NCBI GenBank assembly: GCA_001825155.1
Contig: MHVH01000005.1
Span: forward strand, 168,501 to 232,500
Direction of reading: 5' to 3'
Source of the DNA: Candidatus Zambryskibacteria bacterium RIFCSPHIGHO2_01_FULL_46_25
GTDB lineage: Bacteria; Patescibacteriota; Minisyncoccia; Phycocordibacterales; Zambryskibacteraceae
Length of the DNA stretch: 64,000 nt
The notes beneath the pieces were generated by a model. The model did no database searches. It saw nothing but the letters and a program-made list of their open reading frames with translations, and was not told the origin of the DNA. A program made the position numbers and the translations under genes. Below, in pieces: positions 4,960 through 46,954 of the stretch (position 1 is its first letter; the number at the start of each line of letters is the position of its first letter).

Positions 4960-5330
4960 TAAAATACCACTCTTTTCAGAGTTTAGGAAGTACTGTGCCG
5001 ATGCTCTTCGGTCATCGTGTACAAGGTGGCTGGTTGGCAAGGTAGAGAAACTGTTCTCTTTTGCCCTAACGGCTCAGCAAGCTGAGCCGTTGGAAAACTA
5101 GACTTTCCGCTCATTCCATTCAAAAAAGTCTTATCACCGCCAACACTGAAAGTATGATAGCGGAAAGGCTGAGGAAGCGCTGTGCGCTTCCGAAGGGCCT
5201 TGAGCACCGAAGGTGCGAAAGGTGTACGGCGTCTGTAAGACGAGAGGCACGAGCACGCCCGCAGGGCGTGCGAGTTAGTTAGAATCAAGAATTTTTGATA
5301 AAGTAGGTTCGAGCAGACTCGTATAGAGCC
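4960..5330 (+). other. structured non-coding region of unknown family; ends in a tRNA-3'-like GGTTCGA...AGAGCCACCA
   Basis: About 370 nt without a credible ORF and dense in hairpins (GCACCttcgGTGC, GCACGCCCgcaGGGCGTGC, AACGGCTCAGCaagcTGAGCCGTT); its 3' end resembles the 3' half of tRNA-Leu; strand uncertain. Confidence 0.2.
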
Positions 5331-5422
5331 ACCATAGATGGGATAAAGCCCAATTCGGATAATTCGGATTTGGCTTGGCTGATGAAAACCCAAGGAATTT
5401 CGGGCACGGCGCGCGCTTCGCG
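5331..5422. repeat. left copy of a perfect 92-bp inverted repeat (partner 8581-8672); diverged similarity continues to about 5480
   Basis: Manual reverse-complement alignment gives 92/92 identity; begins with ACCA immediately after the tRNA-like 3' end. Confidence 0.9.
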
Positions 5423-5827
5423 CGAGTGGAGGTGTAGGTTCATAAAATTCAAAGCCAAAATATTTTCTGGAGGTTGATTTTAATACAAGGGTTCTGGGAG
5501 GTCGTACTTTTTAGTATGTGCTTGCCCCACCCGCCCGTGCGCGCACAAATTCTGCTCCCCTTAATGACATTCTCCATTTTACAACACTGATTATTCCTCC
5601 TGTCTTCTTGAAAAATCCTTATTTTATGATAGTTTATCGTCAGTGGCGATTCGTTCGCCACCAGAGTGCTCAACGGGAGAAGTTTGTTTACTCAAATTAC
5701 TCACAATGACGCACTCGCAACATTCAAGTAAGAAAGAAAGTTTTACTTTCCTTCCGAAAGGTGTTATCCTTAGTAGCGAGGCTGACCCAGCGTCGGCCTC
5801 GACTCCTAAGGGTACCGGTCCAAGTGG

Positions 5828-7084
5828 TTGTATGTTGGTTCGACTCCAACGGGATCGTCTATTGAAAAACATCTCAATTTACATTCAGTTTTCTCCTATT
5901 CAGAGTTTGGAAAAGCTTTTAACAAGCTAAAGAAAAAGAACAAATATAGGCAGACATCTGCAGATTTTAATTTAAAAGACCGATATTCCGACAAAAGAAT
6001 TCTAAACGCCCTAGGGAAATTCATACAGAAACATTCGAGCGATCAGGCAAGAGGATTGTATAGAGAAGTAGAAATCTACTCTCTTAGGCCATATAGGGGA
6101 ATTTCGATTTTAAAAAAGAGCGGGAAATATCGCCCACTTCTTGTTCCCTCTCCTTTGGATAGATTGGTATTTTTAACTGCGCTTCCAAGAATAAAAGGGT
6201 TGATTTATAAGAGACTTTTGAAATTTTCTGCTTTAGGGGTAGGCGTTAAGAGTGAGGAGGGATTAAAAATTACCATTGTATCTAATAAAATATTTGAAAA
6301 GGTTAAGCAGAAGAAAACGAGATATGTCCTTGCCTTAGATTTCCAGGACTTTTTCTCAACTATTCACAGAGATAAGCTGCACAGAAAACTTAAAACTATT
6401 TTTTCAAAAGCTGAAGAAAAAGAACTTTTGAAACTTTTAGTCTTGTCGATAAATAATCCTATAGAATCAGATGATCTTTTTAAAGCAAAATTTAAGAATC
6501 TTAATCTCGAGACAAGCGGAATTCCTCAAGGACTAGCGTACTCTCCATTACTAGCTAGTTTCTTTGCTACAAGTCTGGACGCCTTAGTGAGAAGAAACAA
6601 GTCAGTAATCTCGTACCGTTATTTAGATGATATGGTAATCATAGGGCCAAACAAAAGAAATCTTATAAAAATCTATAGAAAAATAAAAAGTTTTTCAGCT
6701 AAATTGGGTCTGAAGCTCCACGACCTTGGCGGAAAGACAAAAATATTACCAGTTATAAATCCCGATGATTCTTTCGATTTTCTCGGCATCTCTTTTTCTA
6801 AATCAGGTAAGCATATTACCAATCAAGCTATTAAGAAGTTTTTAGAAACCATAAAGACAGAAATCCTTACTGGGCGAGGATTAAGAACTTCTCCAGATAA
6901 TATCAAGAGGGTTTTTAAAGAATATGTCACTGGATGGAAACAATACTACTCGGCCATCTGCCCAGAGCACTATAAGGAAATAGCCCCAATTTTAGCAAAT
7001 GAAGTTCGTACTTATATGCTGAAAAAGAAAGCTTGGAAAAGGATATACCTAAGTGATGAAAATTTGTTTAACTTGAAGGAGTGA
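5828..7084 (+). CDS. reverse transcriptase (group II intron/retron-like prokaryotic RT; no intron RNA domains recognised)
   Basis: RT motifs RPLLVPSPLDRLV (RT2), LDFQDFFSTI (RT3), GIPQGLAYSPLLAS (RT4), YRYLDDMVII (RT5, YxDD), and thumb motif YVTGWKQYY; ORF opens with TTG, true start uncertain. Confidence 0.75.
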   Translation: MYVGSTPTGSSIEKHLNLHSVFSYSEFGKAFNKLKKKNKYRQTSADFNLKDRYSDKRILNALGKFIQKHSSDQARGLYREVEIYSLRPYRGISILKKSGKYRPLLVPSPLDRLVFLTALPRIKGLIYKRLLKFSALGVGVKSEEGLKITIVSNKIFEKVKQKKTRYVLALDFQDFFSTIHRDKLHRKLKTIFSKAEEKELLKLLVLSINNPIESDDLFKAKFKNLNLETSGIPQGLAYSPLLASFFATSLDALVRRNKSVISYRYLDDMVIIGPNKRNLIKIYRKIKSFSAKLGLKLHDLGGKTKILPVINPDDSFDFLGISFSKSGKHITNQAIKKFLETIKTEILTGRGLRTSPDNIKRVFKEYVTGWKQYYSAICPEHYKEIAPILANEVRTYMLKKKAWKRIYLSDENLFNLKE

Positions 7085-7191
7085 TATAATAAACTCGCAC
7101 TCAACCGATAATAAGTTGTCTTTTTAAATGGCCGTCTCGGGTCAGCTTAAGGCAACTTAGGTTGAGTGCACCGGGGCGGCCATTTAAGTTT

Positions 7192-8721
7192 ATGAAATAC
7201 TTTTTATACGTTAGAAAATCCACCGATGTTGAAGACAAGCAAGTGCTTTCTATTGAAGCGCAGCTTTCGGAATTGAGAACTATTGCTAAACATGATGAGC
7301 TAGAAATCGTAGAGGAGTTTATAGAAAAGCGAAGTGCAAAAGTTCCAGGCAGATCAATTTTTGAAGAAATGCTCCGCCGGATTGAAAAGGACGAAGCCGA
7401 AGGAATTATTTGCTGGAAAGTAGATAGACTTTCCAGAAATCCTGTAGACAGCGGACGTATCAGTTGGATGCTTCAGCAAAACATCATTCAAAAAGTTATC
7501 ACACACGATAGAGTTTATCTCCCGCAAGACAATGTGCTTATTATGTCTGTAGAGTTCGGGATGGCTAATCAATACATCAGAGATTTGAGTGTAAATACCA
7601 AACGAGGTTTAAGAGCCAAAGCCAGACAAGGTATTTACCCCAGTGTTGCGCCCCTAGGATATTTAAATGATGTAAGGAGTAAGACGATAGTTATAGATAG
7701 GAAGAAAAGCCTTATAGTCCGTAAAGCATTTGAGATGTATGCGGAAAATAAATATAACCAAGAAGATATAGCCAACTTTCTTTTCAAGAATGGTATTCAA
7801 AGCAGATTAATAAGAAGACCAGACGCAACTGGCGGTAAGCCCTTGAAGAGAGACCAGATTAAGTGGATCTTAGAAAGCCCTTTTTATTATGGAAACTTCT
7901 ACTATGCTGGCGAAGTTTGGGAAGGAAAACACAAACCCTTAATTTCAAAAAAGCTCTGGGATAAAGTCCAAGAAGTTTTGAAATTAAGAGGAAGGGTAAA
8001 GAAAGTTAAGACAGAACCTAAAGCATTTTCCGGACTTCTTTATTGTGGAGAATGTGGCTGTTCTATTACTGCCGAAAGACAAAAGGGACATATTTATTAT
8101 CGTTGCACCAAAAAGAAAGGTAAATGCTCACAGCCCTTTACTAGAGAGGAAGTTTTAGACTCCCAACTTTCGGCAATACTAACTTCCTTAGTATTGCCGA
8201 GTGAATGGGCTAAAGAATTAAATAAGATGTTGGATAAAGACGAAGCGGACATCACTCAATCCGCGACGGCGTCCGTCCAAGCTCTGCGGTCAGATGCGAT
8301 GGAGATAAACTCCAAGCTTGCCCGCATTACAGACCTCTTTGTGGAACAAGACATTGAGCGTGGAGAATACCTGGATAGGAAGAAAGCTCTAATGTCTCAA
8401 AAGAAGTCTGTAGAGGAACAAATCCTCTTACTTGAACGAGACGCTGCTAGATGGCTCGAACCGATGCGAGAATGGCTAAAGGTGGCTTCTAGCCTAGCTG
8501 AAGCCGCGCAATCGAACGACCTCCCCTCCAGAAAATCATACCTCCAGAAAATCTTTGGCTCGAACCTCACACTCCACTCACGCGAAGCGCGCGCCGTGCC
8601 CGAAATTCCTTGGGTTTTCATCAGCCAAGCCAAATCCGAATTATCCGAATTGGGCTTTATCCCATCTATGGTGGGTCAGGTGGGAATCGAACCCACATCC
8701 GCAGAGCGGACAACATTTTAA
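7192..8721 (+). CDS. large serine recombinase (resolvase/invertase N-domain, recombinase domain, zinc ribbon); ORF reads through the inverted repeat into tRNA-Leu
   Basis: MKYFLYVRKSTDVEDKQVLSIEAQ with catalytic-Ser context; zinc ribbon CGECGCS...YYRCTKKKGKC; ORF track starts at TTG 7162, ATG at 7192 is preferred; last ~50 aa are encoded by the inverted repeat and tRNA. Confidence 0.8.
   Translation: MKYFLYVRKSTDVEDKQVLSIEAQLSELRTIAKHDELEIVEEFIEKRSAKVPGRSIFEEMLRRIEKDEAEGIICWKVDRLSRNPVDSGRISWMLQQNIIQKVITHDRVYLPQDNVLIMSVEFGMANQYIRDLSVNTKRGLRAKARQGIYPSVAPLGYLNDVRSKTIVIDRKKSLIVRKAFEMYAENKYNQEDIANFLFKNGIQSRLIRRPDATGGKPLKRDQIKWILESPFYYGNFYYAGEVWEGKHKPLISKKLWDKVQEVLKLRGRVKKVKTEPKAFSGLLYCGECGCSITAERQKGHIYYRCTKKKGKCSQPFTREEVLDSQLSAILTSLVLPSEWAKELNKMLDKDEADITQSATASVQALRSDAMEINSKLARITDLFVEQDIERGEYLDRKKALMSQKKSVEEQILLLERDAARWLEPMREWLKVASSLAEAAQSNDLPSRKSYLQKIFGSNLTLHSREARAVPEIPWVFISQAKSELSELGFIPSMVGQVGIEPTSAERTTF
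8581..8672. repeat. right copy of the perfect 92-bp inverted repeat (partner 5331-5422); extended similarity to about 8490
   Basis: Exact reverse complement of 5331-5422; lies within the recombinase 3' coding region and ends at the CCA of tRNA-Leu. Confidence 0.9.
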
Positions 8722-8754
8722 GTGTTGCGCGTATACCTATTCCGCCACTGACCC
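8669..8754 (-). tRNA. tRNA-Leu (anticodon TAA), CCA encoded
   Basis: Manual cloverleaf: acceptor GGGTCAG/CTGACCC, anticodon arm CAACA-CTTAAAA-TGTTG, long variable arm, T-arm GGGTTCGATTCCC. Confidence 0.85.
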
Positions 8755-8756
8755 AG

Positions 8757-8829
8757 AGGCGTAGAGGGGAATCGAACCCCTGCAATAACAGTTTTGCAGA
8801 CTGTCGCGTTACCACTTCGCCACTACGCC
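8757..8829 (-). tRNA. tRNA-Cys (anticodon GCA)
   Basis: Acceptor GGCGTAG/CTACGCC, anticodon loop CTGCAAA, T-arm GGGGTTCGATTCCCC. Confidence 0.8.
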
Positions 8830-8900
8830 AAAACCACTATTACCATACCATAAAATGTTGAAAAACGGTTCGATTAATGAGATACTATGCTTTGTTTGTT

Positions 8901-8973
8901 GCGCCCATAGCTCAGCTGGTAGAGCAGATCCCTCTTAAGGATAAGGTCCAAGGTTCGATCCCTTGTGGGCGCA
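8901..8973 (+). tRNA. tRNA-Lys (anticodon CTT)
   Basis: Acceptor GCGCCCA/TGGGCGC, D-arm GCTCAGCTGGTAGAGC, anticodon loop CTCTTAA, T-arm CAAGGTTCGATCCCTTG. Confidence 0.8.
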
Positions 8974-8977
8974 CAAT

Positions 8978-9059
8978 GCCGAGGTGGCGAAATTGGCAGA
9001 CGCGCCAGCTTTAGGAGCTGGTACCGCAAGGTGTGGAGGTTCAAGTCCTCTCCTCGGCA
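8978..9059 (+). tRNA. tRNA-Leu (anticodon TAG)
   Basis: Acceptor GCCGAGG/CCTCGGC, anticodon arm CCAGC-TTTAGGA-GCTGG, long variable arm, T-arm GGAGGTTCAAGTCCTCT. Confidence 0.85.
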
Positions 9060-30603: not shown

Positions 30604-30652
30604 GACCTCACCCGGTCTTACGACCACCCTCTCCTAGACGCAAGGAGAGGGT
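30604..30652 (+). repeat. palindromic mini-repeat (GACCTCACCC...CCCTCTCCT-loop-AGGAGAGGG), copy 1, overlapping the 3' end of the DUF559 gene
   Basis: Identified by eye; four copies in the window share GACCTCACCC plus the hairpin CCCTCTCCT/AGGAGAGGG. Confidence 0.85.
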
Positions 30653-30985
30653 TTGCTTAATTATCCCAATTACTTTATTCAAATTTTTGGTAATTTCATA
30701 ATTTTTTATACGAAGAGTTTGATATCCTAAGTTTTTAAAAAACTTATCACGATTAGAATCATATTCTTTTTGAAATTCATGCGATTTACCATCAATTTCA
30801 ACAATCAACCTGGCTTTAAAACAGTAGAAATCGAGTATGTATCCTCCCATGCTGTGTTGTCTTCTAAATCTGCACCCGAGTTTATTATTTCTAAGTTTTT
30901 GCCACAACATCTCTTCTTCTGGAGTTGATGATTCCCTGAGATTCCGTCTTCGTTCAATAAATTTTCGTTGATTATGTATTTTCAT
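30608..30985 (-). CDS. DUF559 endonuclease-domain protein (Vsr/restriction-endonuclease-like fold)
   Basis: YILDFYCFKARLIVEIDGKSHEF...RDKFFKNLGYQTLRI is the DUF559 pattern. Confidence 0.65.
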   Translation of the reverse strand: MKIHNQRKFIERRRNLRESSTPEEEMLWQKLRNNKLGCRFRRQHSMGGYILDFYCFKARLIVEIDGKSHEFQKEYDSNRDKFFKNLGYQTLRIKNYEITKNLNKVIGIIKQTLSLRLGEGGRKTG

Positions 30986-30990
30986 GCTTG

Positions 30991-31032
30991 CCCCCTCTCC
31001 TTACGTTCTAGGAGAGGGGTTGGGGGTGAGGT
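30991..31032 (-). repeat. palindromic mini-repeat copy 2 (inverted relative to copy 1), between the DUF559 start and the rseP stop
   Basis: CCCCCTCTCCTtacgttctAGGAGAGGGGttgGGGGTGAGGTT. Confidence 0.85.
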
Positions 31033-32117
31033 TAGAAAATATTCCTAACGTCCCTTATGGTAATAAGTATCATCAGGAAGATTAGCAGGGCGAAACCGGC
31101 GGCATTCACGGCGTTGAAAAATCTGACGGGAATCTTCCTCCTGGTAATCGATTCCATGCCTACGAAGAGTAGCCTGCCTCCGTCAAGGGCCGGGAACGGC
31201 AGAAGATTGATTATCGAGAGATTTATAGAAAGAAGTGCGGTGAAGGTGACGAGATAGCCCCAGCCGAGATTGCGTATATCCCCCACCATACCGACAATTC
31301 CCACCGGTCCGGTTACGGACGCTAGGTCCGCCTTACCGACAAACGCCCGACCTATTAATCCGACAATCGCTTTGGCCGTAAGAGTGGTGAGAGAAGCTGT
31401 GGTCTTAAGCCCTTCCCATACAGCCCGATGCGCCGGCAACTTCACCGTCCCGATAGTTTCCATGGATATGCCGACTGCTTTCTGTCCCGGCAAAATGCCT
31501 TCCTTTGGAGTTACTGTCTTCTGCGAAATGTCCTTGCCCCTCTGAATTTCAAAGGCAATGGACCCTGAAGAATTTTTTATATACCTTGTCGCCTCTTCCG
31601 GAGTAAGGTTCAGAATCACATCTCCTGCCTTGAGGCCCGACAAAGCAGCCGGGGATTCCGGCACTACGAGCGTTATCACGGTGCGCGGATTCTCAACGGG
31701 TAAGGAAGTGCTCGCGGGCGATGGTATACCTGTGATAAAACCGAGAGAGATGAGCAACCAAGCGAAAAGGAAATTGAAGAAGACGCCCGCCGCGAGCACG
31801 GTAGCCTGTATGCCACGATTTTTGGATTGAAAATTATCTGGATCAAGACCTCTCCCCTTCCCCTCTCCTAAATTAGGAGAGGGCTGGGTGAGGTCGGTCT
31901 CTGAATTCTCCCCAAAAATTTTTACAAAGCCGCCGAAAGGCAGCCAGTTGAGCGTGAAATCAGCTCCCTTCCATTTAAAAATCTTTTTGGCGCGAGGCGG
32001 GTAGCCCAGGCCGAATTCGTCCACGCGTATGCCAAAAAACCTTGCCGCGAGAAAATGCCCAAGCTCATGCACTACGATAAGCGCGCTTAAAATTATTAAG
32101 AAGATTATTATTGACAT
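31032..32117 (-). CDS. rseP: RIP metalloprotease RseP (site-2 protease, M50 family)
   Basis: HELGHFLAARFFGIRV zinc motif, PDZ domain, C-terminal TM helices; contains an in-frame palindromic repeat insert. Confidence 0.85.
   Translation of the reverse strand: MSIIIFLIILSALIVVHELGHFLAARFFGIRVDEFGLGYPPRAKKIFKWKGADFTLNWLPFGGFVKIFGENSETDLTQPSPNLGEGKGRGLDPDNFQSKNRGIQATVLAAGVFFNFLFAWLLISLGFITGIPSPASTSLPVENPRTVITLVVPESPAALSGLKAGDVILNLTPEEATRYIKNSSGSIAFEIQRGKDISQKTVTPKEGILPGQKAVGISMETIGTVKLPAHRAVWEGLKTTASLTTLTAKAIVGLIGRAFVGKADLASVTGPVGIVGMVGDIRNLGWGYLVTFTALLSINLSIINLLPFPALDGGRLLFVGMESITRRKIPVRFFNAVNAAGFALLIFLMILITIRDVRNIF
31855..31896 (-). repeat. palindromic mini-repeat copy 3, inserted in frame inside rseP
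   Basis: CCCTCTCCTaaattAGGAGAGGGctgGGTGAGGTC; encodes ...DLTQPSPNLGEGKGRG... in RseP. Confidence 0.85.
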
Positions 32118-37567: not shown

Positions 37568-37840
37568 TTACAGAAGTCCCGGATAATTCGGCTTGTCGAT
37601 GCCGAACGTGCCTAAGATGAGATTGATGATGCCGTAGGCGGATATCATGATAAGCATACCCACTAGCCCCCACAAGATTTTTTTCTTGCCGTCTTCGCGC
37701 TTGGTATCGGTAGTTTCGGAATTGATGAACTGGACTATGCCCCAGAAGAAGTATAGTGTCGCCACGGCGAAAAGCAGTATGATAATCGGATTCAGGATGA
37801 ACTGATTGACCTTGTTGAGAAGCTCGATAATCATCGCCAC
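37568..37840 (-). CDS. small two-TM pilin-like protein (VirB2/TrbC-like, T4SS-pilin-type), array member 1
   Basis: 90 aa; two hydrophobic helices separated by a K/D/E loop; conserved LLFxxxxLYFFWGIVQFI ... ILWGLVGMLIMI. Confidence 0.45.
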   Translation of the reverse strand: MAMIIELLNKVNQFILNPIIILLFAVATLYFFWGIVQFINSETTDTKREDGKKKILWGLVGMLIMISAYGIINLILGTFGIDKPNYPGLL

Positions 37841-37846
37841 CCAATA

Positions 37847-38194
37847 CTAGAGACCGGGAACCGTCGGTACGGCTTGAGGAGTAGACTCCGGATTGACGCC
37901 GACGGCATTGCCGATGAAGCGGACAAGACCCCAGACAGCAACCATTACGAAGAGGGCTACAAGGCCCCAGATCATGAGACGCTGGCCTTCCTTATGAGCA
38001 TCTTCGCCAGAAGCGGAGAAGATGAATCGAACCAAGCCCCAGAAGAAGACGAGGAGTGCGACCGCCACCACGATAGGAAGGGCGATACCCACCAGTCTGC
38101 CGATGGAGCGCAGAAGCGTCTCGAGATTGCCGAGATTCTGAGCGAAAGCGACTGCCGGAAAAGTTGCTAAAGCGATTAATGCGAATTTTTTCAT
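37847..38194 (-). CDS. pilin-like two-TM protein with signal peptide, array member 2
   Basis: Signal peptide MKKFALIALATFPAVAFAQ; LLVFFWGLVRFI ... MIWGLVALFVMVAVWGLVRFI. Confidence 0.5.
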   Translation of the reverse strand: MKKFALIALATFPAVAFAQNLGNLETLLRSIGRLVGIALPIVVAVALLVFFWGLVRFIFSASGEDAHKEGQRLMIWGLVALFVMVAVWGLVRFIGNAVGVNPESTPQAVPTVPGL

Positions 38195-38304
38195 TTAATT
38201 AACTATTTACTATCTAATATCTACTAATAACTTACGTATTTAATGATACGTCAATAGCGGGAAATCGCAACCGATCAATCCCCACCCCATGGGGATTGAT
38301 CTCC

Positions 38305-38661
38305 CTAGGGTCTTGGGATTTGTGGCAAGTCCACGGTGTAGCCGGAGATATTCAATTCCTTCTGTATAAATCTCACAAGTCCCCAGACCGTTATCATCAC
38401 GAAAAGAGCCACAAGACCCCAGACCATAAGGCCCTTACTCTTCTTCACTTCCGCTTCATCCCCGGCCTTCGAAATAAACTTGACTAGGCCCCAGAAGAAA
38501 ACAAGCAAGGCGGCAGCTACAACGATAGGAATAATGTTTTGTATCAGGTCGCCTATGCGATCGATCCATCTACCTGTGGTCCCGAATGTCGTTTGCGCGC
38601 TCGCTATTGCCGGAAAAACCGACAAGGTAATCACCAATAATTTCATTAATTTATTTTTCAT
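38305..38661 (-). CDS. pilin-like two-TM protein with signal peptide, array member 3
   Basis: Signal peptide ...FPAIASAQ; LLVFFWGLVKFI ... MVWGLVALFVMITVWGLVRFI. Confidence 0.5.
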   Translation of the reverse strand: MKNKLMKLLVITLSVFPAIASAQTTFGTTGRWIDRIGDLIQNIIPIVVAAALLVFFWGLVKFISKAGDEAEVKKSKGLMVWGLVALFVMITVWGLVRFIQKELNISGYTVDLPQIPRP

Positions 38662-38684
38662 ACTTTAATTATAACTTGATTATT

Positions 38685-38957
38685 TTAACGCCTCAAGGGT
38701 ATTGAGGACCCCTGGCCTATGTTAAGTTCCTTGCCTATGAACTTCACAAGCCCCCAGACACTTATCATAACAAAGAGGCTTATGAGCCCCCAAACCATGA
38801 AATTTTTGCCTTCTTCCACAGCCTTCTCATCCCCGCCTACGCGGGCAATGAATTTTACCAAGCCCCAGAAGAAGACAAGCATGGCGGCAATAATCAGCAC
38901 TCCGACAATATCCGCCACCAGTCCGCCCGCCCCTTTAATTAAGACTTGCAAGTTCAT
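38685..38957 (-). CDS. pilin-like two-TM protein, array member 4
   Basis: MLVFFWGLVKFIARVGGDEKAVEEGKNFMVWGLISLFVMISVWGLVKFI. Confidence 0.5.
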   Translation of the reverse strand: MNLQVLIKGAGGLVADIVGVLIIAAMLVFFWGLVKFIARVGGDEKAVEEGKNFMVWGLISLFVMISVWGLVKFIGKELNIGQGSSIPLRR

Positions 38958-38960
38958 GGA

Positions 38961-39236
38961 TTATTTATTGGTAGGCAGAGTTGGCACGGCGAAATTTCTG
39001 AATCCAAGCTCGCCGAACGCAAACCGGAGAATACCGAAAATCGATACCATCACGAATATGCCTATGAGCCCCCATATCATGAGACTGCGCCCTTCGGCAT
39101 GAGTCTTGGCATCGCCCGACTTGGCTATGAAGCCGACCAAACCCTTGAAGAAGACGAGGAGTGCCAGCGCCACCATAATGGTAATAAGCGGATTGATGAG
39201 GTTTATGAATTTTCCCACTAGTTCTGTGAAATTCAT
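38961..39236 (-). CDS. pilin-like two-TM protein, array member 5
   Basis: LLVFFKGLVGFIAKSGDAKTHAEGRSLMIWGLIGIFVMVSIFGILRF. Confidence 0.5.
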   Translation of the reverse strand: MNFTELVGKFINLINPLITIMVALALLVFFKGLVGFIAKSGDAKTHAEGRSLMIWGLIGIFVMVSIFGILRFAFGELGFRNFAVPTLPTNK

Positions 39237-46929: not shown

Positions 46930-46954
46930 ATTCGAAGTTAGGATTTAGGATTTT

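What the first reader, a model, noticed from the sequence alone, without database searches (positions are those of the whole stretch)
30604..31896. RPE-like palindromic mini-repeat family inserted in frame into essential genes (rseP, tsaD)
Four copies of a ~40-bp unit GACCTCACCC-(N)-CCCTCTCCT-loop-AGGAGAGGG occur at 30604-30652, 30991-31032 (inverted), 31855-31896 (inside rseP) and 59727-59764 (inside tsaD). The intragenic copies keep the reading frame and add near-identical peptide inserts (LTQPSPNLGEGKG in RseP, LTQPSPSQGEGGA in TsaD). This mirrors the Rickettsia palindromic elements that colonise protein-coding genes, but occurs here in a CPR-like genome with a distinct sequence.
Basis: seen in the sequence. 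Interest (0 to 1): 0.75.

Follow-up and report, generated by a model that had tools for sequence, protein, structure and literature searches.

The report
Palindromic mini-elements partnered with DUF559 nuclease
The four small palindromic repeats are real, and two do sit in frame inside rseP and tsaD, but they are the ends and gene-less derivatives of a small cassette carrying a DUF559 (Vsr-like) nuclease gene, a pairing found across many bacterial phyla that suggests a role for a large protein family of unknown function.

Summary
Observation confirmed: exactly four copies of (G/A)ACCTCACCC-N2-13-CCCTCTCCT-loop-AGGAGAGGG occur in the window (0 expected). Two are read in frame in rseP and tsaD, at loops where solved structures and the closest orthologs have no such residues.

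The same cassette, with the same ends, sits in three unrelated genomic contexts in other CPR genomes and is absent from syntenic sites in close relatives.

The motif is not CPR-specific. Most copies are solo; about 10% are read through by long ORFs, several confirmed as housekeeping genes (Dus, TilS, GcvP).

Conversely, 89% of DUF559 genes (44-100% identity) have a family hairpin just upstream, against 5% of control windows. Deinococcus, Sinorhizobium and Pseudanabaena isolates show the same flanks.

The logic resembles REPIN/RAYT, with a nuclease in place of a Y1 transposase. I found no description of this in Rfam or the searchable literature. The mechanism is inferred, not shown.

The parts
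30604..31033 (-). Complete DUF559 cassette (~430 bp): box + hairpin, nuclease gene, hairpin + small hairpin + box, lying between rseP and proS, all on the minus strand
   Evidence: The same architecture occurs in L006, L009, L010 and L021. The cassette is absent from the syntenic rseP|proS spacers of L212, L213 and L215.
30608..30985 (-). DUF559 (Vsr-like PD-(D/E)xK) nuclease gene, 125 aa; its last ~12 codons (TLSLRLGEGGRKTG) and stop codon are encoded by repeat copy c1
   Evidence: Pfam PF04480 E=2e-34. PDB 3HRL E=5.6e-26. Fold matches to 3HRL and, weakly, to I-Bth0305I. Invariant E63, D65, H69, D76. Homologs end in TLSLRLGEG...RGEV.
31024..31033 (-). 5' outer box of the cassette (AACCTCACCC); overlaps the rseP stop codon TAA
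30993..31018 (-). 5' main hairpin of the cassette (copy c2): CCCTCTCCT-loop-AGGAGAGGG. Its 3' arm supplies an AGGAG Shine-Dalgarno-like sequence just upstream of the DUF559 ATG
   Evidence: ssDNA fold -11.1 kcal/mol, z=-3.5.
30627..30651 (-). 3' main hairpin of the cassette (copy c1)
   Evidence: ssDNA fold z=-3.35.
30614..30625 (-). Small variable hairpin (GGTC-TTAC-GACC) between the 3' main hairpin and the outer box. In homologous cassettes the sequence differs but pairing is kept
30604..30613 (-). 3' outer box of the cassette (GACCTCACCC on the + strand, GGGTGAGGTC on the gene strand); contains the DUF559 stop codon
31847..31895 (-). Solo element c3 inside rseP: box - hairpin - GAA - degenerate second box (GGGGAGAGGTC), read in frame as DLTQPSPNLGEGKGRGL. 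The canonical TGA of the second box is AGA here, which keeps the frame open
   Evidence: Nested ssDNA fold -17.4 kcal/mol, z=-5.1.
59727..59761 (+). Solo element c4 inside tsaD: box + hairpin (second box lost or degenerate), read in frame as DLTQPSPSQGEG
31032..32117 (-). rseP (M50 site-2 protease), host gene of c3
   Evidence: Pfam PF02163 E=1.6e-52; PDB matches
58956..60113 (+). tsaD (tRNA t6A transferase subunit), host gene of c4
   Evidence: PDB matches E=1e-68; orthologs

Best explanation
The repeats belong to a widespread family of miniature nested-palindromic DNA elements whose dedicated protein partner is the DUF559 (Vsr-like) nuclease, with logic like that of REPIN/RAYT systems.

The full unit is a ~430-bp cassette: outer box (CCTCACCC), conserved hairpin (CCCTCTCCT/AGGAGAGGG), DUF559 gene, conserved hairpin, small variable hairpin, inverted outer box. 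Gene-less derivatives are far more numerous. They consist of the two ends fused around one hairpin, or around short non-coding cargo.

Proposed mechanism (inferred, not shown): the ends fold as single-stranded or cruciform DNA. DUF559, acting in trans, recognises and nicks or cuts this structure or its junctions. Host repair, recombination or replication then copies or re-inserts the element. Copies seen inside genes are the survivors of selection: they lie in tolerant surface loops and in frames without stop codons.

Shown here: the anatomy, the two-way statistical association, presence/absence polymorphism at orthologous sites, conservation of pairing with sequence change, in-frame read-through, and loop location.
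Inferred: nuclease activity on the element, action in trans, and the copying mechanism.
For: Anatomy: identical cassette ends in four genomes and three unrelated contexts (rseP|proS, dprA|topA, pgk|HIT), plus Bacteroidota L021. There is a continuum of box-hairpin-[cargo 0-390 nt]-hairpin-box.

DUF559 predicts the element: of 523 metagenomic relatives, the best 80 were examined. 57 of 64 (89%) have a perfect hairpin of at least 9 bp within 130 nt upstream, against 5% of 288 control windows. At least 32 of 149 family representatives carry translated element sequence in their termini. Finished sequences from isolates of Deinococcus, Sinorhizobium and Pseudanabaena show the same box+hairpin flanks.

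The element rarely predicts DUF559: 1 of 120 genome loci and 0 of 68 viral loci, as expected for one master gene and many derivatives. No other protein family recurs beside the copies.

Mobility or polymorphism: the cassette is present in the window and L009 but absent from syntenic L212, L213 and L215. The solo inserts are absent from the closest RseP and TsaD orthologs. E. coli ycjD is present in 62% of complete genomes.

Folded strand: stems and boxes change by compensatory substitutions. Spacer mini-hairpins have stems of at least 5 bp in 35% against 2% of shuffles, with unrelated sequences. ssDNA fold z-scores run from -3.1 to -8.6.

Nuclease: Vsr-like fold, invariant E/D/H/D residues. 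A Vsr-fold homing endonuclease exists as precedent (PMC3239194).
Against: No biochemical activity is known for any DUF559 protein; the only solved relative, 3HRL, is uncharacterised. A Vsr-type nuclease has no known strand-transfer chemistry, so transposition proper is unexplained.

No target-site duplication or clean junction could be defined.

The test for co-variation between a contig's DUF559-linked stem and its solo stems was inconclusive: 5 of 23 against 1.6 expected, with 4 of the 5 from one clade.

Whether every genome holding solos also encodes a DUF559 cassette was not testable. E. coli ycjD has a hairpin but no dispersed copies. N. gonorrhoeae and PCC 7002 show only weak flanking hairpins.

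Much of the data comes from MAGs and a few groundwater sites and is partly redundant. Palindromic symmetry alone could also reflect a dimeric duplex-binding protein.
Confidence: 0.5

Rival explanations
1. DUF559 is a free-standing homing endonuclease gene that parasitises a pre-existing dispersed repeat. The palindromic element is its recognition and landing site, so the gene is always found embedded in or between copies. The repeats themselves spread or persist by some other, unknown means.
For: A Vsr-fold nuclease is a proven homing endonuclease (PMC3239194; weak fold match). Cassettes are presence/absence polymorphic at the same locus. In several loci the gene lies beside or between complete box-hairpin-box elements rather than half elements (L147, L152, L171). 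Solo copies outnumber cassettes by about 100:1. Multiple stem flavours coexist on one contig.
Against: No other mobilising gene is associated with the repeats. The protein is only ~110-125 aa and lacks the extra DNA-binding domains of I-Bth0305I. The cassette ends are full inverted copies rather than a split target. This model does not explain how solo copies entered the coding sequence of conserved genes.
Confidence: 0.25
2. The elements are host-functional structured sequences (RNA hairpins acting in transcript stability, termination or translational control, or DNA structural sites). DUF559 would be a processing or regulatory enzyme acting on them, possibly at the RNA level. On this view their spread is old and they are no longer mobile.
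For: The 3' arm of the upstream hairpin carries the Shine-Dalgarno-like AAGGAG of the DUF559 gene, so it could sequester it. Fold search also hits Vsr-like proteins of a mitochondrial ribosome, and Vsr-like RAP/FASTK proteins act on RNA (PMC11879112). Sequence conservation across phyla is very strong.
Against: No Rfam family matches. Copies occur in several frames and contexts, inside ORFs as well as between genes. Presence/absence differs between close relatives at orthologous sites. Internal cargo varies between copies. Copies also occur on viral contigs.
Confidence: 0.12
3. One reading: an orphan, lineage-specific RPE-like palindromic repeat of a CPR genome that colonises genes on its own.
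For: In-frame inserts in rseP and tsaD are confirmed.
Against: Two of the four copies are the ends of the DUF559 cassette. The family spans many phyla. Size and architecture differ from RPEs (PMC10969869).
Confidence: 0.05
4. The dispersed copies are REPs/REPINs mobilised by a RAYT or an IS200/IS605-type Y1 transposase located elsewhere in each genome, and DUF559 merely hitch-hikes between them.
For: REPINs with RAYTs exist in Nostoc and many other bacteria, and RAYT genes are flanked by their REPs (PMC3116915). The architecture (hairpins, inverted doublets, cloverleaf folds) is similar.
Against: No transposase-like family recurs near the copies. 89% of DUF559 genes carry the element immediately upstream, which hitch-hiking does not predict. 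No GTAG/CGTC-type tag was evident. RAYT presence in these genomes was not tested.
Confidence: 0.08

Closest known systems
REPIN / RAYT systems (REP doublets with REP-associated tyrosine transposases; PMC3116915)
   Same: Short G+C-rich palindromes dispersed in many copies. Inverted doublets with variable spacers. Cloverleaf or hairpin folds. One dedicated protein gene per family that is itself flanked by the repeats and far rarer than them. Broad phylogenetic distribution.
   Different: The partner protein is a Vsr-like PD-(D/E)xK nuclease (DUF559), not an HUH Y1 transposase. About 10% of copies lie inside ORFs rather than being strictly extragenic. The core sequence is nearly identical across phyla. 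The gene-carrying unit itself is found at different loci in related genomes.
Rickettsia palindromic elements (RPE; Ogata et al. 2000, as reviewed in PMC10969869)
   Same: Palindromic repeats inserted in frame into unrelated housekeeping genes, adding a conserved peptide at structurally tolerant positions.
   Different: RPEs are ~150 bp, restricted to Rickettsia, and have no known partner protein. These elements are 35-65 bp, span many phyla, and are tied to DUF559.
MITEs (miniature inverted-repeat transposable elements; PMC10969869)
   Same: Terminal inverted repeats, small size, many gene-less copies compared with a rarer gene-carrying version, and variable internal cargo.
   Different: No parent insertion sequence with a recognised transposase. 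No target-site duplication found. The ends are themselves hairpins.
EDxHD / Vsr-like homing endonucleases such as I-Bth0305I (PMC3239194)
   Same: Vsr-type nuclease fold with a conserved acidic/His active-site set. The gene is presence/absence polymorphic at a fixed locus.
   Different: I-Bth0305I is intron-encoded, has N-terminal NUMOD/HTH DNA-binding modules, and targets one gene (recA). DUF559 here is a ~120-aa single domain, free-standing, and bracketed by structured palindromes.
Vsr very-short-patch repair endonuclease
   Same: Same fold superfamily (clade 'VSR, DUF559, DUF2726' in PMC3424549).
   Different: Vsr is a housekeeping T:G mismatch nickase linked to Dcm. No methyltransferase partner or repeat association of that kind is seen here.

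Membership tests
DUF559 (PF04480) protein family | Significant match to the Pfam model over its full length | tested here: met
   E=2e-34, profile positions 5-108 of 109; PDB 3HRL E=5.6e-26
DUF559 (PF04480) protein family | Vsr-like fold with conserved acidic/His catalytic residues | tested here: met
   AF2 model pLDDT 78.6. Foldseek top hit 3HRL, weak hit to I-Bth0305I. Invariant E63, D65, H69, D76.
Rickettsia palindromic elements (RPE) | In-frame insertion of a palindromic repeat into protein-coding genes | tested here: met
   rseP and tsaD; Dus, TilS, FemAB, M16, GcvP in other genomes
Rickettsia palindromic elements (RPE) | Element length ~100-150 bp and restriction to Rickettsia | tested here: not met
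   35-65 bp solo units; found in about eight bacterial phyla plus one archaeal MAG. RPE size taken from PMC10969869.
Rickettsia palindromic elements (RPE) | Sequence similarity to RPE-1 to RPE-10 consensus sequences | not tested
MITE | Terminal inverted repeats bracketing a short non-coding unit | tested here: met
   box+hairpin ends in inverted orientation, cargo 0-260 nt
MITE | Target-site duplication | tested here: inconclusive
   Filled and empty orthologous sites are too diverged to define junctions. Flanks of box-hairpin-box elements tend to A-rich on one side and T-rich on the other, with no clear direct repeat.
MITE | Derivation from an IS encoding a recognised transposase | tested here: not met
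   The only gene found between the ends is DUF559. No transposase family recurs nearby.
REP / REPIN-RAYT | Dispersed palindromes that also flank one dedicated protein gene | tested here: met
   89% of DUF559 genes against 5% of controls; 1 of 120 and 0 of 68 loci in the reverse direction
REP / REPIN-RAYT | The dedicated gene is a RAYT (HUH Y1 transposase) | tested here: not met
   The gene is PF04480 DUF559
REP / REPIN-RAYT | Extragenic location | tested here: not met
   About 10% of copies are read through by long ORFs, several confirmed by Pfam
Homing endonuclease gene (Vsr-like / EDxHD) | Presence/absence polymorphism of the gene at a fixed locus among relatives | tested here: met
   rseP|proS spacer with the cassette (window, L009) and without it (L212, L213, L215); ycjD in 62% of E. 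coli genomes
Homing endonuclease gene (Vsr-like / EDxHD) | The nuclease cleaves the empty allele or target site | not testable with these tools
   Requires biochemistry
Homing endonuclease gene (Vsr-like / EDxHD) | Residence in a self-splicing intron or intein, or NUMOD-type DNA-binding modules | tested here: not met
   125-aa single-domain protein, free-standing between genes
Known structured RNA family (Rfam 15) | Match at gathering threshold | tested here: not met
   Only tRNAs were found in the window and in 12 element-bearing loci

The most novel reading that the evidence does not exclude
DUF559 proteins (over 24,000 clusters at 50% identity) are the effectors of a previously unrecognised, pan-bacterial class of miniature structured-DNA mobile elements. 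These would propagate by nuclease action on a folded palindrome plus host repair, without a transposase. They would also continually seed short in-frame peptide inserts (PSPxxGEG, PLLxKERG and similar) into conserved proteins across phyla.
Probability: 0.4. Interest if true: 0.9.

Novelty: new variant of a known kind. Interest (0 to 1): 0.8.

Why it matters
If correct, this has four consequences.

1. It assigns a biological role to a very large domain-of-unknown-function family present in E. coli (ycjD), Neisseria, rhizobia, Deinococcus, cyanobacteria and CPR bacteria.

2. It adds a second, mechanistically different example of the "one domesticated enzyme plus many miniature palindromes" lifestyle, known so far from REPIN/RAYT.

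3. It explains a class of recurrent low-complexity peptides (…LTPxPSPxxGEG…, …PLLxKERGxGVR…) that appear in proteins and spurious ORFs in many phyla, which matters for annotation and alignment.

4. It shows that even the minimal genomes of CPR bacteria tolerate selfish DNA inside conserved housekeeping genes.

The near-identity of a ~35-bp DNA motif across phyla also raises the question of what constrains it.

Tried and rejected
- **Rfam** at gathering threshold on the window and 12 element-bearing loci: only tRNAs.
- **Literature**: searches for DUF559 plus palindromic, the literal stem sequences, small dispersed repeats in Nostoc, and rhizobial mosaic elements found no description of this pairing. 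The original RIME paper is not held, so identity with rhizobial RIME/REP repeats could not be checked.
- **First profile (A1)** was too diverse for the metagenome scan; the narrower A2 was used instead.
- **Formal pair counting** on a MAFFT alignment of hairpins was abandoned. Variable loops put the 3' arm out of register, and the hairpins had been selected for complementarity, which makes the count circular. It was replaced by a positional control and a shuffled-spacer control.
- **Co-variation** of solo stems with the DUF559-linked stem on the same contig: inconclusive.
- **Target-site duplication and junctions**: not definable.
- **Guilt-by-association** for other partner proteins: none found.
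- **Viral contigs**: solo copies only, no cassette.
- **E. coli ycjD hairpin**: not a dispersed repeat.
- **One strand folding input** (L218:2230-2300) missed the element, and its result should be ignored.
- **Chance or low complexity** as an explanation is rejected.
Full report
**1. The observation**

The window contains exactly four copies of the composite motif (G/A)ACCTCACCC – 2 to 13 nt – CCCTCTCCT – 5 to 8 nt loop – AGGAGAGGG:

| Copy | Coordinates | Strand |
|---|---|---|
| c1 | 30604-30651 | + |
| c2 | 30993-31033 | - |
| c3 | 31861-31895, with an outer arm to 31847 | - |
| c4 | 59727-59761 | + |

None is expected by chance: there were 0 matches in 100 dinucleotide-preserving shuffles. 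c3 lies in rseP (31032-32117, minus strand) and c4 in tsaD (58956-60113, plus strand). Both are in the same orientation relative to the host gene and in the same frame, giving DLTQPSPNLGEGKGRGL and DLTQPSPSQGEGGAL.

**2. They are inserts, and they sit in loops**

HMMER alignments to solved RseP structures (Aquifex 9J82, E. coli 7W6X) and TsaD structures (8IEY, 4WQ5) place gaps opposite these residues.

Among 120 RseP orthologs, the closest (P0097 at 81% identity, P0101 at 76%) are 348 aa against 361 and read GESPDEENANSPESFQ at the site. For TsaD, 86 of the 121 aligned sequences have the minimal loop, including the closest orthologs, P0217 and P0219 (KIRDLGKLNDEMKED).

An AlphaFold model of the window's TsaD (mean pLDDT 84.3) puts residues 258-273 in a coil between helices 246-260 and 274-302. 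The block pLDDT there is 60, against 91-97 on either side.

The same element occupies the same site and frame in some more distant orthologs: RseP P0137/L215 and P0159/L214, and TsaD P0248/L218, P0262 and P0304. So the sites are either recurrent targets or carry old insertions that were lost repeatedly. I could not resolve which.

In the rseP copy the second box reads GGGAGAGGTC. In that frame the canonical GGGTGAGGTC would contain an in-frame TGA stop, which suggests selection for an open reading frame.

**3.

c1 and c2 are inverted with respect to each other. They exactly bracket an ORF at 30608-30985 (minus strand) that is a DUF559 / Vsr-like nuclease (Pfam PF04480, E=2e-34).

Read on the gene strand, the unit is:

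AACCTCACCC-CCAAC-[CCCTCTCCT-loop-AGGAGAGGG]-GGCAAGC-ATG … DUF559 … [CCCTCTCCT-loop-AGGAGAGGG]-T-[GGTC-GTAA-GACC]-GGGTGAGGTC

This ~430-bp cassette (30604-31033) lies between rseP and proS. The rseP stop codon overlaps one box. The DUF559 C-terminus (TLSLRLGEGGRKTG) and its stop codon are encoded by the other end.

**4. The cassette is a unit that moves or is lost**

Homologs at 65-75% identity from other CPR genomes end in the same TLSLRLGEG…(RGEV). At DNA level they have the same two ends. They lie between dprA and topA (L006), between pgk and a HIT gene (L010), or, as in the window, between rseP and proS (L009). The small hairpin next to the 3' box differs in sequence but keeps its pairing: GGCCgaaaGGCC, GGCaaaGCC, GCTTCGAgtaaaTCGAgAAGC.

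Syntenic frr-rseP-proS loci of the window's closest relatives have no cassette (L212, L213; L215 has a 33-nt spacer). They nevertheless share the proS promoter-proximal sequence.

**5. The motif is pan-bacterial**

I scanned one genome per GTDB species for the exact pattern CCTCACCC-N1-28-CCCTCTCCT-N4-9-AGGAGAGGG (26 specified bases). They came from:
- Cyanobacteria: Nostoc, Rivularia, Scytonema, Calothrix NIES-267, Richelia, Brasilonema
- Bacteroidota: Fibrella, Emticicia, Spirosomataceae
- Ignavibacteria
- Chloroflexota / Dehalococcoidia
- Armatimonadota
- Verrucomicrobia
- Vampirovibrionales
- Many CPR lineages
- One Bathyarchaeia MAG

IMG/VR holds 68 further stretches.

Within those genome loci and the DUF559 homolog loci fetched earlier, I found 195 family hairpins: 72 with a box on the 5' side only, 71 on the 3' side only, 42 with both, and 10 with none.

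The two-box form is a nested structure. It has an outer stem (CCTCACCCC/GGGGTGAGG), an almost invariant main hairpin (CCCTCTCCTT-NNN-AAGGAGAGGG), and one or two small hairpins of variable sequence. There are also box-hairpin-…-hairpin-box pairs enclosing 14-260 nt of unrelated non-coding cargo. This forms a continuum that ends with the DUF559 cassette at ~340-390 nt of cargo.

As single-stranded DNA, the window copies fold with z-scores from -3.1 to -5.1. A full element (L027) folds into a cloverleaf at -31.6 kcal/mol, z=-8.6.

The spacer mini-hairpins are real. Stems of at least 5 bp occur in 35% against 2% of shuffled spacers, and stems of at least 6 bp in 23% against 0%. Because their sequences are unrelated, this favours selection on a folded single strand rather than on a symmetric duplex binding site.

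**6. In-frame residence in genes is general**

About 10% of copies (roughly 20 of 195) are read through by ORFs that extend at least 60 codons on both sides. Pfam confirms the following hosts:

| Host gene | Locus and lineage |
|---|---|
| Dus | L018, Nomurabacteria |
| TilS | L022, Dehalococcoidia |
| FemAB | L053, Moranbacteria |
| M16 peptidase | L095 |
| Elp3-like radical-SAM enzyme | L124 |
| GcvP | L125 |

Different spacings yield the peptide types LTxxPSPxxGEG, PLLxKERGxGEV/GVR and PLSxxGEG.

**7. The association with DUF559 is strong in one direction and weak in the other**

*From motif to gene.* Only 1 of 120 genome loci (L021, Bacteroidota) and 0 of 68 viral loci contain a DUF559 gene between or beside copies. 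No other protein family recurs next to the copies.

*From gene to motif.* A metagenome scan with a DUF559 profile found 523 relatives, of which the best 80 (44-100% identity) were kept. Nearly all have a family hairpin plus box directly 5' of the ATG, and about half have hairpin plus box 3' of the gene. Quantitatively, 57 of 64 (89%) have a perfect hairpin of at least 9 bp within 130 nt upstream, against 15 of 288 (5%) random windows from the same loci.

Stems differ between loci by compensatory changes:
- CCCCTCTCCTT / AAGGAGAGGGG
- CCCTTCTCCTT / AAGGAGAAGGG
- CCCTCCCCTT / AAGGGGAGGG
- CCCCTCACCTT / AAGGTGAGGGG
- TGCTTCCTCTT / AAGAGGAAGCA

The boxes change in the same way.

*Family-wide.* There are 24,221 representatives of 50%-identity clusters at E≤1e-3. 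At least 32 of the top 149 carry translated element sequence in their annotated termini, for example …PSPLQGEGRPSVKRSGVR and LSLTPSPSPGERG….

*Finished sequences from cultured organisms*:
- Deinococcus psychrotolerans: perfect terminal inverted repeats, with the cassette sitting between paaD and paaZ.
- Sinorhizobium meliloti: CCCTCACCCTAA-CCCTCTCCCCG-loop-CGGGGAGAGGG on both sides.
- Pseudanabaena: two nested pairs.
- Synechocystis and Azospirillum: partial versions.
- N. gonorrhoeae and PCC 7002: little.
- E. coli ycjD: preceded by a hairpin with a 19-bp stem and box-like outer arms. The gene is present in 62% of complete genomes and has no dispersed copies.

**8. The protein**

The only solved relative is 3HRL, an uncharacterised structural-genomics target from N. 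gonorrhoeae. The AlphaFold model (pLDDT 78.6) matches 3HRL. [quoted passage not shown]

E63, D65, H69 and D76 are invariant. This is consistent with the Asp/His/Asp active site described for Vsr and the EDxHD homing endonucleases (PMC3239194), and with the joint 'VSR, DUF559, DUF2726' clade of the PD-(D/E)XK survey (PMC3424549).

**9. Interpretation**

The logic is one rare, dedicated gene embedded in its own repeat, plus many gene-less derivatives. This is the logic of REPIN/RAYT systems (PMC3116915), but here the enzyme is a nuclease rather than a Y1 transposase. In-frame colonisation of housekeeping genes is what RPEs are known for (PMC10969869).

I therefore favour a DUF559-dependent miniature structured-DNA element (confidence 0.5). 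The main rival is that DUF559 is a homing-type parasite of a repeat that spreads by other means (0.25).

The mechanism is inferred. No DUF559 activity is known, no junctions or target-site duplications could be defined, and the test for co-evolution between gene-linked and solo stems was inconclusive.

**10. Novelty**

I found nothing in Rfam and no description of a DUF559-palindrome partnership in the searchable literature. That library is incomplete, and local repeat families with other names (rhizobial RIME/REP, cyanobacterial SDRs) may be members; I could not check this.

I class it as a new variant of a known kind (REPIN/MITE-like elements with a dedicated protein). It would be of high interest if the partnership is confirmed.

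Noticed in passing
window 59390-59416 (-), 59616-59642 (+), 46934-46946 (+): A second short repeat family, tandem GGATTTAGGATTT. Two inverted copies 187 nt apart lie inside tsaD and are read in frame (NPKSKILNPKLE and KSRFRIKDLGFKF). Both fall opposite gaps in solved TsaD structures, and the first (residues 146-154) is a low-pLDDT segment of the model. tsaD therefore carries inserts from at least two repeat families.
   Followed up: partly
window 5326-5441 and 8562-8677: A 116-nt inverted repeat, 95% complementary by the repeat finder and nearly identical over its core. The arms flank ~3.1 kb holding two long plus-strand ORFs (5828-7084, 7162-8721). One arm abuts the tRNA cluster at 8672-9059, and both arms begin next to a tRNA T-arm-like GGTTCGA.
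   Followed up: partly
RseP orthologs P0104, P0108, P0111, P0116, P0139; P0114, P0120, P0123, P0124 (same loop as window 31847-31895): The RseP loop after GGFVKIFGE is a general insertion hotspot in this lineage. Other orthologs carry different inserts there (PPLLKSSDIPSEYGQTLLKEARP; duplicated PSPWKDS units), and the length of the aligned stretch spanning the loop ranges from 33 to 58 residues.
   Followed up: no
L290 (Deinococcus psychrotolerans plasmid NZ_CP034185.1, 298037-299145): A DUF559 cassette with perfect box+hairpin terminal inverted repeats sits between paaD and paaZ, inside the phenylacetate degradation gene cluster of a cultured organism. This could serve as an experimental system.
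   Followed up: partly
L292 (E. coli; ycjD next to sapF): E. coli ycjD (DUF559) is preceded by a hairpin with a 19-bp stem (TCACCTCATTCTGACAAGA … TCTTGTCAGAATGAGGTGA) whose outer arms resemble the box. The gene is present in 3,378 of 5,426 complete genomes. The hairpin is not dispersed elsewhere in the genome.
   Followed up: yes
L221, L278 and other IMG/VR loci L219-L286: The exact motif occurs on 68 putative viral contigs, some with 5-6 copies. No DUF559 gene occurs in those stretches.
   Followed up: partly
L010 12845-14672: A gene set resembling a diversity-generating retroelement (bAvd, RVT_1 reverse transcriptase, RNase_H) lies ~5 kb from the DUF559 cassette in a Zambryskibacteria contig.
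   Followed up: no
L023, L058, L071, L074, L123, L130, L131 (cyanobacterial loci): In heterocystous cyanobacteria the box-hairpin-box element is itself nested inside a longer palindrome with arms like GTTGAGTCCAATACA … TGTATTGGACTCAAC. This suggests a larger composite element, or insertion into another repeat family.
   Followed up: no
L212 4048-4310 and L213 4048-4292 (rseP|proS spacers without cassette): The cassette-free spacers contain ~150 nt of G+C-rich sequence that could be structured, and which is absent from the window. It was not identified; it could be a leader or a small RNA upstream of proS.
   Followed up: no
window 37717-39184: Four to five direct repeats of 35-58 nt, spaced 279-452 nt apart (families D2 and D4), look like tandem paralogous small genes sharing a conserved segment.
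   Followed up: no
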